Translations under genes and position numbers: made by a program
Source of the DNA: the human T2T-CHM13v2.0 reference genome, Homo sapiens
DNA length: 64,000 nt
Assembly (NCBI RefSeq): GCF_009914755.1
Contig: NC_060930.1
Direction: 5' to 3' (one strand)
The notes under the pieces: model-generated
Database searches by the model: none
What the model was told of the DNA's origin: nothing
Seen by the model: the letters and a program-made list of their open reading frames with translations, nothing else
In this document: positions 5,268 to 5,456 of the stretch, piece by piece
How positions within the stretch are numbered: the first letter of the stretch is position 1
Layout of the letters: each line of letters opens with the position of its first letter

Positions 5268-5456
5268 GGTCATGGAAGGTTGCTAGCAGGCTGTGGTCTG
5301 TGAACTCACAGAAACTATAAACCATCCGTGAAGAAGGAATGGGTCCATCTGAAGAGTGCCAAAGGGAAAAGTAAGACAAAGACATGGAGCAGCCTCAAGG
5401 GGATGAAATGGATGAAGGGGAGGAAGAAGAGAAGAAAGCCAGATCTCAGCCCCAAA
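5268..5456 (+). other. Candidate alternative exon with in-frame ATG (5384) and two alternative donors (5371, 5457)
   Basis: Acceptor TTTCAAATTTTCTTCAG|G; purine-rich ESE-like body (GAAGAAGAGAAG); donors AAA|GTAAGA and AAA|GTAAGG. The 73 nt from the ATG plus 5 nt of exon 2 make 78 nt, in frame with STX11. Confidence 0.5.

What the first reader, a model, noticed from the sequence alone, without database searches (positions are those of the whole stretch)
5268..5456. Upstream exon encoding an in-frame 26-aa acidic N-terminal extension of STX11, toggled by alternative 5' splice sites
Seen: a good acceptor (TTTTCTTCAG|5268), a GAA-rich exon body, and ATG 5384 in strong Kozak context (GACATGG). Exactly 73 nt follow to the donor AAA|GTAAGG (5457). 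Adding the 5 nt of exon 2 (GCAAA) gives 78 nt with no stop, in frame: [35 protein letters not shown]..., a 313-aa isoform. A second donor AAA|GTAAGA (5371) lies just 5' of the ATG and would leave only canonical STX11. Established: the syntaxin N-peptide docks on SM proteins, and STX11 works with Munc18-2/STXBP2 in cytotoxic granule exocytosis. Inference: an acidic leader placed right before this peptide could change Munc18-2 binding, making promoter and splice choice a switch on SNARE function. Short uORFs (5272 MEGC*, 5339) precede it. I have an unverified recollection that computational gene models extend STX11 upstream; I know of no functional study.
Basis: partly seen in the sequence, partly recalled or inferred. 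Interest (0 to 1): 0.8.

Follow-up and report, generated by a model that had tools for sequence, protein, structure and literature searches.

The report
Conserved acidic leader exon of STX11
An upstream exon of the human immune-secretion gene STX11 can add a short, acidic, floppy tail to the front of the protein; the same tail is predicted in many other mammals, so it is probably a real but unstudied protein variant, though nobody has shown that it is made or what it does.

Summary

The human sequence alone is not significant. The stretch is purine-rich, 2 of 3 frames are open, and P(open)=0.37 on shuffling.

The comparative evidence is stronger. Of the 120 best STX11 clusters, 31 carry a homologous acidic extension directly before MKDRL. 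They span primates, tree shrew, rodents, pika, bats, carnivores, horse, rhino, musk deer, an afrotherian and a marsupial. One 305-aa cluster is 100% identical to human and comes from contigs of 2.5 kb or less. It encodes exactly the 5456>51250 junction, starting at the second ATG (5408).

The extension averages 71% identity to human, against 86% for the protein body. It is predicted to be disordered.

The alternative 5' splice-site "toggle" is only a motif; the switch is more likely promoter and exon choice. The proposed effect on Munc18-2 is untested, and N-terminally tagged STX11 still binds Munc18-2.

My searches found no paper on this isoform.

The parts
4677..4800 (+). Upstream alternative first exon (non-CpG promoter region), donor TCG|gtgagt; holds uORF 4770-4796 (8 codons, weak context)
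   Evidence: RefSeq exon list given with the finding; sequence and splice sites; uORF; upstream sequence
5268..5456 (+). Alternative 5' exon (189 nt), single copy, purine-rich; carries the start codons of the extension
   Evidence: RefSeq exon list; single genomic match; composition
5272..5286 (+). uORF, 4 codons plus stop, strong context (gtcATGg)
5339..5374 (+). uORF, 11 codons plus stop, strong context (ggaATGg), same frame as ATG 5384; its stop ends 9 nt before that ATG
5371..5376 (+). Donor-like motif gtaaga (exon would end at 5370); not in the RefSeq exon list, no support found
   Evidence: exon list given with the finding
5384..5456 (+). Exon part of the 26-codon extension ORF from ATG 5384 (strong context); gives 313 aa when spliced to 51250
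   Evidence: homologous 310-313-aa (317 in Dipodomys) forms in 20 clusters
5408..5410 (+). Second in-frame ATG (gaaATGg); gives 305 aa. It is retained in all 20 long forms and is the start of the 10 short forms
5438..5456 (+). Annotated 19-nt alternative first exon (start inside the exon, downstream of both ATGs); yields only canonical STX11
   Evidence: RefSeq exon list
51250..51254 (+). Five 5'-UTR bases of the coding exon (GCAAA) that complete the last two codons of the extension
51255..52118 (+). Canonical STX11 coding sequence, 287 aa, starting with the N-peptide MKDRL
   Evidence: annotation
15743..15865 (+). Annotated middle exon. If included after 5456 it stops the extension ORF at 26 codons; 15743-16052 and 33168-33304 do the same

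Best explanation
Exon 5268-5456 is a genuine alternative 5' exon of STX11, conserved across therian mammals and driven by an upstream promoter at about 4677 (an annotated model also starts inside the exon at 5438, but that start lies downstream of both ATGs and yields only canonical STX11). When it is spliced directly to the coding exon (5456>51250), translation can start at ATG 5384 or ATG 5408. This puts an 18-26-residue acidic, disordered leader (net charge about -5) directly in front of the Munc18-binding N-peptide, giving a 313- or 305-aa STX11. The switch between forms is promoter and exon choice (canonical exon 15164-15350, or frame-breaking middle exons), not the proposed alternative donor. 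Output from the 4677-start mRNA is probably damped by three upstream uORFs. Shown here: the sequence anatomy, the junction in a human-identical short-contig protein, the cross-species conservation of the ORF, and the predicted disorder. Inferred: that the leader is translated in human cells. Most likely it modulates rather than abolishes Munc18-2 binding, or adds a sorting or interaction function; that is speculation.
For: Anatomy: searches confirm canonical splice sites, strong-context ATGs and an open 78 nt in frame. Junction: P0002 (305 aa, 100% identical to the human STX11 body, source label 'lgn', longest contig 2515 nt) begins with exactly the translation of 5408-5456 plus 51250-51254. 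These pieces lie 45.8 kb apart in the genome, so a contig of that size must be spliced RNA; this is my inference, because the tool does not define 'lgn'. Conservation: 31 of the 120 listed clusters carry a homologous extension. Of these, 20 are long forms, 10 are short forms starting at the second Met, and 1 is a marsupial form of 20 aa. They come from Aotus, Microcebus, Tupaia, Marmota, Dipodomys, Ochotona, seven bat genera, Ursus, Vulpes, Callorhinus, felids, Equus, Diceros, Moschus, Rhynchocyon (Afrotheria) and Sminthopsis (Metatheria). They come from several annotation sources, and 7 clusters list 'lgn' as a source. The internal Met is kept in 20 of 20 long forms. Length differences between species are whole codons (26, 25, 24, 23). 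By my arithmetic, mean column conservation is 0.80 in the extension against 0.77 for the ten accepted coding residues after MKDRL. Identity to human averages 0.71 in the extension and 0.86 in the body. By contrast, the 8 unrelated predicted extensions are each confined to one lineage. Structure: residues 1-28 have pLDDT below 50 and no secondary structure.
Against: Ascertainment: only species where the frame is open yield an extended prediction. 81 of the 120 clusters show only the canonical start, and I could not inspect the DNA of those species. The segment is purine-rich, so it has few possible stops and resembles a GAA-type splicing enhancer, and its indels may be triplet slippage; an open frame is therefore cheap. 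No nucleotide alignments were available, so there is no dN/dS or PhyloCSF test. ATG 5384 is preceded by three uAUGs, two of them in strong context, and the last uORF stops only 9 nt upstream. The human-identical cluster starts at the second ATG, not at 5384. No acidic extension appeared among muroid rodents (P0068 cluster of 108 members, representative 287 aa) or monotremes (P0121, P0123). The selected human RefSeq transcript does not use the exon, and the table given does not say which exons are chained in the other 8 transcripts. I have no Ribo-seq, mass-spectrometry or expression data. No paper describes this isoform.
Confidence: 0.6

Rival explanations
1. The exon is a conserved but non-coding 5'-UTR exon. 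Its purine-rich core is kept as a splicing enhancer or other RNA element, and the in-frame ORF is incidental. The 'isoform X1' proteins would then be products of longest-ORF gene-model rules.
For: There are 7 T in 73 nt, 2 of 3 frames are open, and shuffle P(open) is 0.37. Three uORFs lie upstream. 81 of 120 clusters lack the extension, and muroids and monotremes lack it. Gene models do produce chance extensions: 8 unrelated ones are in the same list. The E/K core shows charge-changing E-to-K and E-to-G swaps. No literature or protein evidence was found.
Against: Both ATGs contain T yet are conserved; the internal Met is kept in 20 of 20 long forms. The non-purine flank next to the junction (the SQPQ motif) is 78-97% conserved by column. 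Amino-acid conservation equals that of the adjacent accepted coding residues. The ORF is retained in at least 9 eutherian orders plus a marsupial.
Confidence: 0.25
2. The upstream AUGs are used, but their role is translational control. The uORFs and the in-frame starts tune how much STX11 the upstream-promoter mRNA yields. The leader peptide itself would be functionally neutral.
For: Seven AUGs precede the main start in the 4677-4800 + 5268-5456 + 51250 transcript. The leader is low-complexity and predicted disordered. N-terminal tags do not disturb Munc18-2 binding.
Against: A purely regulatory role does not need the frame, the junction-proximal residues or the acidic composition to be kept across orders. 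It also needs no continuous ORF into the main coding sequence.
Confidence: 0.1
3. One reading: two competing 5' splice sites (after 5370 and after 5456) toggle the leader on and off, and the leader switches Munc18-2 binding.
For: Both donors match the consensus equally well (AAA|gtaag). The donor after 5370 would remove both ATGs. The N-peptide is required for Munc18-2 binding (R4A and deltaN24 mutants).
Against: The exon ending at 5370 is not among the annotated exons. Using it would create a 27-codon out-of-frame uORF overlapping the main start. Tagged STX11 with N-terminal FLAG, GST or GFP still binds or recruits Munc18-2.
Confidence: 0.05

Closest known systems
Predicted 'syntaxin-11 isoform X1' models of other mammals (NCBI, UniProt and other annotation sets)
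   Same: They have the same exon-junction architecture and a homologous acidic leader of 16-30 residues directly before MKDRL. They are the orthologues of the human 313/305-aa product.
   Different: They are computational models without functional study. The table given with the finding does not show whether a human model with this coding sequence exists. The only human-identical record I saw is the 305-aa 'lgn' cluster P0002.
Syntaxin 5 long and short isoforms
   Same: STX5 is a syntaxin made in two forms that differ by an N-terminal extension placed in front of the SM-protein-binding N-terminal motif. The SM protein is predicted to bind both forms (PMC6721632, passages read).
   Different: The STX5 forms arise from two start Mets on one mRNA, and the 54-residue extension carries a di-arginine ER-retrieval signal. 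The STX11 leader needs an alternative exon, is acidic and has no di-arginine motif.
Syntaxin N-peptide binding to Sec1/Munc18 proteins (Stx1A-Munc18-1; STX11-Munc18-2)
   Same: The extended form keeps the N-peptide unchanged. The N-peptide and the Habc domain are both needed for Munc18-2 binding (PMC3890652; PMC4049605). The closest solved relatives are syntaxin-1A chains, including 3c98.
   Different: In the extended form the motif is internal (it starts at residue 27 or 19) and is preceded by a run of acidic residues. No solved STX11 structure came up.
Alternative UNC13D promoter isoform of Munc13-4
   Same: This is another gene of the same cytotoxic-granule pathway in which an alternative promoter gives a protein isoform (PMC7296141; search listing and start of abstract only).
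   Different: It is a different gene and protein family, and it has been characterised experimentally. I did not read the paper beyond the listing.

Membership tests
Alternative 5'-exon N-terminal protein isoform | Exon with canonical splice sites, present in annotated transcripts | tested here: met
   Acceptor ...ttcttcag|G and donor AAA|gtaagg; the exon is in the RefSeq list given with the finding
Alternative 5'-exon N-terminal protein isoform | Direct junction to the coding exon seen in RNA-derived sequence | tested here: met
   The N-terminus of P0002 equals the translation of 5408-5456 plus 51250-51254, and its contigs are 2515 nt or shorter. That 'lgn' contigs are transcripts is my inference from their size
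Alternative 5'-exon N-terminal protein isoform | In-frame AUG with no stop before the main start | tested here: met
   ATG 5384 gives 313 aa and ATG 5408 gives 305 aa, only with the direct junction
Alternative 5'-exon N-terminal protein isoform | ORF conserved across species | tested here: met
   31 of 120 clusters, at least 9 eutherian orders plus a marsupial. Ascertainment bias was not removed
Alternative 5'-exon N-terminal protein isoform | Codon-level purifying selection (dN/dS, PhyloCSF) | not testable with these tools
   No nucleotide sequences of other mammals were reachable
Alternative 5'-exon N-terminal protein isoform | Evidence of translation (Ribo-seq, peptides) | not testable with these tools
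   No such data are held; literature searches found nothing
Syntaxin with N-terminal SM-binding N-peptide | Conserved N-peptide motif (MKDRL...) present | tested here: met
   invariant in all 32 aligned sequences
Syntaxin with N-terminal SM-binding N-peptide | Motif sits at the extreme N-terminus | tested here: not met
   In the extended form it starts at residue 27 (or 19)
Syntaxin with N-terminal SM-binding N-peptide | Binds its SM protein (Munc18-2) | not tested
Indirect evidence: N-terminally tagged STX11 binds
STX5-type long/short syntaxin | Two or more in-frame start Mets on one mRNA | tested here: met
   5384, 5408 and 51255 are in frame on the direct-junction transcript; actual usage is unknown
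STX5-type long/short syntaxin | Extension carries a di-arginine ER-retrieval motif | tested here: not met
   The human extension has a single R and no RR or RKR
uORF-regulated 5' leader | Upstream AUGs with stops before the main start | tested here: met
   uORFs at 4770, 5272 and 5339; their conservation and use were not tested

The most novel reading that the evidence does not exclude
The acidic leader is a functional, therian-conserved regulatory module of STX11, expressed from its own upstream promoter in particular cell types. By sitting next to the basic N-peptide it would tune Munc18-2 engagement, or it would act as an acidic-cluster sorting or interaction signal. That would give a second, differently regulated form of a SNARE whose loss causes familial haemophagocytic lymphohistiocytosis type 4. 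Its apparent absence from muroid rodents would explain why mouse work never met it.
Probability: 0.2. Interest if true: 0.7.

Novelty: new member of a known kind. Interest (0 to 1): 0.5.

Why it matters
STX11 is a disease gene (FHL4), and its N-peptide is the handle by which Munc18-2 binds and stabilises it. A conserved isoform that buries this handle behind an acidic leader would be a new point of control of granule exocytosis. It would also make bases now read as intron or 5' UTR (5384-5456) coding, which matters for variant interpretation. The question can be answered directly with existing public RNA-seq, Ribo-seq and mass-spectrometry data and with simple binding assays. If the rival (non-coding exon) is right, the case shows how purine-rich UTR exons can seed widely propagated 'isoform X1' models.

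Tried and rejected
- Hackmann et al. 2013 (PMC3839780), on the Munc18-2 structure and N-peptide binding: not held. I cite it only as reference 25 of PMC3890652.
- N-terminal region search (P0019 residues 1-40): 12 hits, all clusters already known, so it did not extend the taxonomic range.
- Mouse-centred search: no acidic extension among muroid representatives. This is absence in cluster representatives, not proof of loss.
- Repeat origin of the exon: rejected. There is one genomic match, and the neighbouring antisense Alu and (TA)n tract end about 60 nt before the acceptor.
- Processed pseudogene that might fossilise the junction: none. The coding exon has one genomic match.
- Significance from the human sequence alone: rejected.
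- My automatic classifier recognised 27 acidic extensions and placed 4 (P0066, P0072, P0092, P0115) with 'other'. I reassigned these four by eye from the alignment, giving 31 homologous, 8 unrelated and 81 without extension.
- Literature, ten searches: STX11 + 'N-terminal extension', 0 papers. A 'syntaxin 11' / isoform / 'alternative first exon' search gave nothing relevant among the 15 of 1,504 listed. STX11 + 'alternative promoter', 4 papers; none of the titles or abstract starts concerns a STX11 promoter, and I read passages of one. Of 69 papers holding at least 2 of STX11 / Ribo-seq / 'N-terminally extended', none of the 10 listed holds STX11. 'syntaxin 11' + 'splice variant', 16 papers, none of the 10 listed on STX11 splicing by title. 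STX11 + PhyloCSF, 0. 'syntaxin-11 isoform', 0. 'syntaxin 11' + doublet, 4 papers, irrelevant by title. The other two searches supplied the background papers on the N-peptide and on STX5.
- Supplementary tables of proteogenomic or Ribo-seq papers were not searched and could hold evidence either way.

Full report
**1. Is the observation there?**

Yes. The window shows the following:
- the acceptor ttttcttcag|G at 5268;
- ATG 5384 in a strong context (purine at -3, G at +4);
- the donor AAA|gtaagg after 5456;
- an equally good donor-like AAA|gtaaga after 5370.

5384-5456 is 73 nt. With the five bases 51250-51254 of the coding exon it makes 26 codons without a stop, in frame with the STX11 ATG at 51255. 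The product is 313 aa.

The uORFs at 5272 and 5339 exist as described. I add three features:
- a further uORF at 4770 in the upstream first exon 4677-4800;
- a second strong-context in-frame ATG at 5408, giving 305 aa;
- the stop of the 5339 uORF ends only 9 nt before ATG 5384, so ATG 5384 is the fourth AUG of that transcript.

The exon is single-copy in the genome. It is not part of the antisense Alu and (TA)n tract that fill the intron upstream of it.

**2. Is the human sequence alone more than chance?**

No. The 73 nt hold only 7 T, and two of the three frames are open across them. 37% of composition-preserving shuffles of the 75 nt after the ATG remain open. Multiplied by the 1-in-3 chance of being in frame, that is about 0.12. 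This is unremarkable for a gene with several alternative 5' exons.

The extension also depends on the exon chain. Only the direct junction 5456>51250 keeps the frame. Inserting the annotated middle exons 15743-15865, 15743-16052 or 33168-33304 stops the ORF at 26 codons. Inserting 15956-16052 alone opens a different-frame extension from ATG 5403 or 5412. The annotation table given with the finding lists exons but not how they are chained. I therefore cannot say whether a human RefSeq model encodes the 313-aa form.

**3. What changed my reading: related proteins**

I searched the canonical STX11 protein against the large protein collection. This gave 706 hits at E<=1e-30, of which the best 120 clusters were listed. 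Reading their N-termini gives three groups:
- 81 clusters start at the canonical M[KR]DRL.
- 8 clusters carry unrelated extensions, each confined to one lineage (Lepus, Scotinomys, Pteropus, Talpa, Physeter, a Thomomys model named after PHACTR2, and two 'lgn' clusters). These show the background noise of gene models.
- 31 clusters carry a homologous acidic extension that ends in a conserved junction-proximal motif directly before MKDRL.

My script rule caught 27 of the 31. I reassigned the other four (P0066, P0072, P0092, P0115) by eye from the alignment.

The 31 clusters divide by length as follows:
- 20 long forms of 23-30 residues, homologous to the human ORF from 5384;
- 10 short forms of 16-18 residues that begin at the Met homologous to human ATG 5408;
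- one marsupial form of 20 residues.

Named sources cover:
- primates (Aotus, Microcebus) and Tupaia;
- rodents (Marmota, Dipodomys ordii) and the pika (Ochotona);
- bats (Myotis, Rhinolophus, Saccopteryx, Rhynchonycteris, Molossus, Desmodus);
- carnivores (Ursus, Vulpes, Callorhinus, Neofelis, Panthera);
- Equus, Diceros and Moschus;
- Rhynchocyon (Afrotheria) and Sminthopsis (Metatheria).

The marsupial match is low-complexity, so I call its homology probable, not certain.

**4. Junction evidence close to human**

Cluster P0002 is 305 aa and 100% identical to the human STX11 body. Its only source label is 'lgn', and its longest contig is 2515 nt. Its first 18 residues are exactly what 5408-5456 plus 51250-51254 encode.

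In the genome these pieces lie 45.8 kb apart, so a contig of that size must come from spliced RNA. This is my inference; the tool does not define 'lgn'. The cluster counts (68 members, 35 contigs) cover the whole cluster, so I can claim only that at least one such contig exists.

Four further 'lgn'-only clusters carry the junction (P0066, P0089, P0104, P0115; contigs 1145-2155 nt). Two more list 'lgn' among their sources (P0085, P0113). The junction therefore does not rest on one annotation pipeline.

Why the human-identical representative starts at the second ATG rather than at 5384 is unexplained. The contig may start inside the exon, or the ORF caller may have chosen that start.

**5. How conserved is the leader?**

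In the alignment of the 31 clusters plus human:
- The internal Met is kept in 20 of 20 long forms.
- The junction-proximal columns are 78-97% conserved.
- By my arithmetic, the mean top-residue fraction over the 26 extension columns is 0.80. For the ten accepted coding residues that follow MKDRL it is 0.77.
- Identity to human averages 0.71 in the extension and 0.86 in the body. The leader therefore diverges about twice as fast as the rest of the protein, but remains clearly constrained.
- Length differences between lineages are whole codons.

An AlphaFold2 model of the 313-aa Aotus form was built on a 27-sequence alignment (mean pLDDT 70, pTM 0.45). It gives residues 1-28 pLDDT below 50 and no secondary structure, with the first helix starting at residue 27. 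This fits a disordered leader. From the sequence, the human leader has 9 acidic and 4 basic residues.

**6. Caveats I could not remove**

- Only open frames become extended predictions, so the 31 clusters are an ascertained sample. I could not look at the DNA of the species that show only the 287-aa form.
- Purine-rich sequence has few ways to make a stop, and it tends to gain and lose triplets. It is also the classic make-up of an exonic splicing enhancer (established knowledge, recalled). Nucleotide-level constraint could therefore mimic part of the signal.
- No nucleotide sequences of other mammals were reachable, so I have no dN/dS or PhyloCSF result.
- No acidic extension appeared among muroid rodents. 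The mouse cluster P0068 stands for 108 sequences with a 287-aa representative, and P0036 and P0028 carry unrelated extensions. None appeared in monotremes either (P0121, P0123).
- I have no expression, Ribo-seq or peptide data.

**7. How it most likely works**

The switch is promoter and exon choice:
- The canonical CpG-rich first exon 15164-15350 yields only the 287-aa protein.
- The upstream non-CpG start at about 4677 brings in exon 5268-5456. If that exon is spliced straight to 51250, it offers two strong in-frame AUGs ahead of the weaker-context canonical AUG.
- On that mRNA the extended forms should be the main product of ribosomes that get past the three uORFs. Those uORFs probably keep output low (inference).

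For function, the N-peptide is needed for Munc18-2 binding, and Munc18-2 stabilises STX11:
- The R4A mutation in FLAG-STX11 abolishes binding (PMC3890652, passages read).
- Deleting the N-terminal 24 residues abolishes binding, stabilisation and recruitment (PMC4049605, passages read).
- Those same experiments used STX11 carrying FLAG, GST or GFP in front of the N-peptide, and the wild-type constructs still bound or recruited Munc18-2.

A leader in front of the motif is thus tolerated. A simple on/off switch is unlikely. Modulation of affinity by the acidic run beside the basic N-peptide, or a separate sorting or interaction role, remains open and untested.

**8. Comparison with what is known**

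The nearest relatives are the computational 'syntaxin-11 isoform X1' models of other mammals, which are orthologues of this product. The nearest studied precedent is syntaxin 5. Its long form carries a 54-residue N-terminal extension in front of the SM-binding motif, and Scfd1 is predicted to bind both forms (PMC6721632, passages read). STX5 differs in three ways:
- it uses two Mets on one mRNA;
- its extension is an ER-retrieval signal;
- the STX11 leader has no di-arginine motif.

No STX11 structure is solved. The closest solved chains are syntaxin-1A, including its Munc18-1 complex entry 3c98. Another gene of the same pathway, UNC13D, has a characterised alternative-promoter isoform (PMC7296141, listing only).

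**9. Novelty and verdict**

The exon is annotated and the extended protein is deposited as a prediction for many mammals. The object is therefore known to databases. My ten literature searches found no paper that describes or tests it. Supplementary tables were not searched.

I file it as a new member of a known kind: an alternative-5'-exon N-terminal isoform of a syntaxin.
- Confidence that it is a real, conserved, coding-capable exon whose leader is translated at some level: about 0.6.
- Confidence in the main rival, a non-coding UTR exon with an incidental ORF: about 0.25.
- Interest: 0.5. It is a well-defined lead in a disease gene that existing public data can test, but it is not yet evidence of a new mechanism.

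Noticed in passing
window 5268-5456 + 15956-16052 + 51250: If the exon is followed only by the annotated 97-nt exon 15956-16052, a different frame of the purine-rich exon (ATG 5403 or 5412) runs in frame into STX11 and gives 339 or 336 aa. This shows how readily this exon yields open frames.
   Followed up: partly
window 15166: The selected transcript NM_003764.4 has an ATG at its third base (15166). It opens a 78-codon ORF out of frame with STX11 that overlaps the main start. Being 2 nt from the cap, it is unlikely to be used.
   Followed up: no
window 45321-45379: This annotated exon is preceded by ...tatca|GCA, not AG, so it is probably an alternative first exon (a further start site about 6 kb upstream of the coding exon). 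It holds two tiny uORFs.
   Followed up: no
window 4849-5207: A long (TA)n tract followed by an antisense Alu fills most of the 467-nt intron between exon 4677-4800 and exon 5268-5456, ending about 60 nt before the acceptor.
   Followed up: no
P0111 (Thomomys bottae), P0012, P0028, P0036, P0076, P0088, P0093, P0013: Eight STX11 clusters carry unrelated, lineage-specific N-terminal extensions. One is a model named 'phosphatase and actin regulator 2 isoform 6' with a full STX11 body, most likely a read-through or fusion gene model.
   Followed up: partly
P0068, P0036, P0028 (muroid rodents); P0121, P0123 (monotremes): No acidic leader was seen among muroid or monotreme representatives, although sciurid and heteromyid rodents have it. 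This suggests loss in muroids, or missing annotation.
   Followed up: partly
window 5438-5456: An annotated 19-nt first exon starts inside the leader exon, at a codon boundary of the 5384 frame and downstream of both ATGs. This points to a transcription start, or to truncated evidence, within the exon.
   Followed up: no
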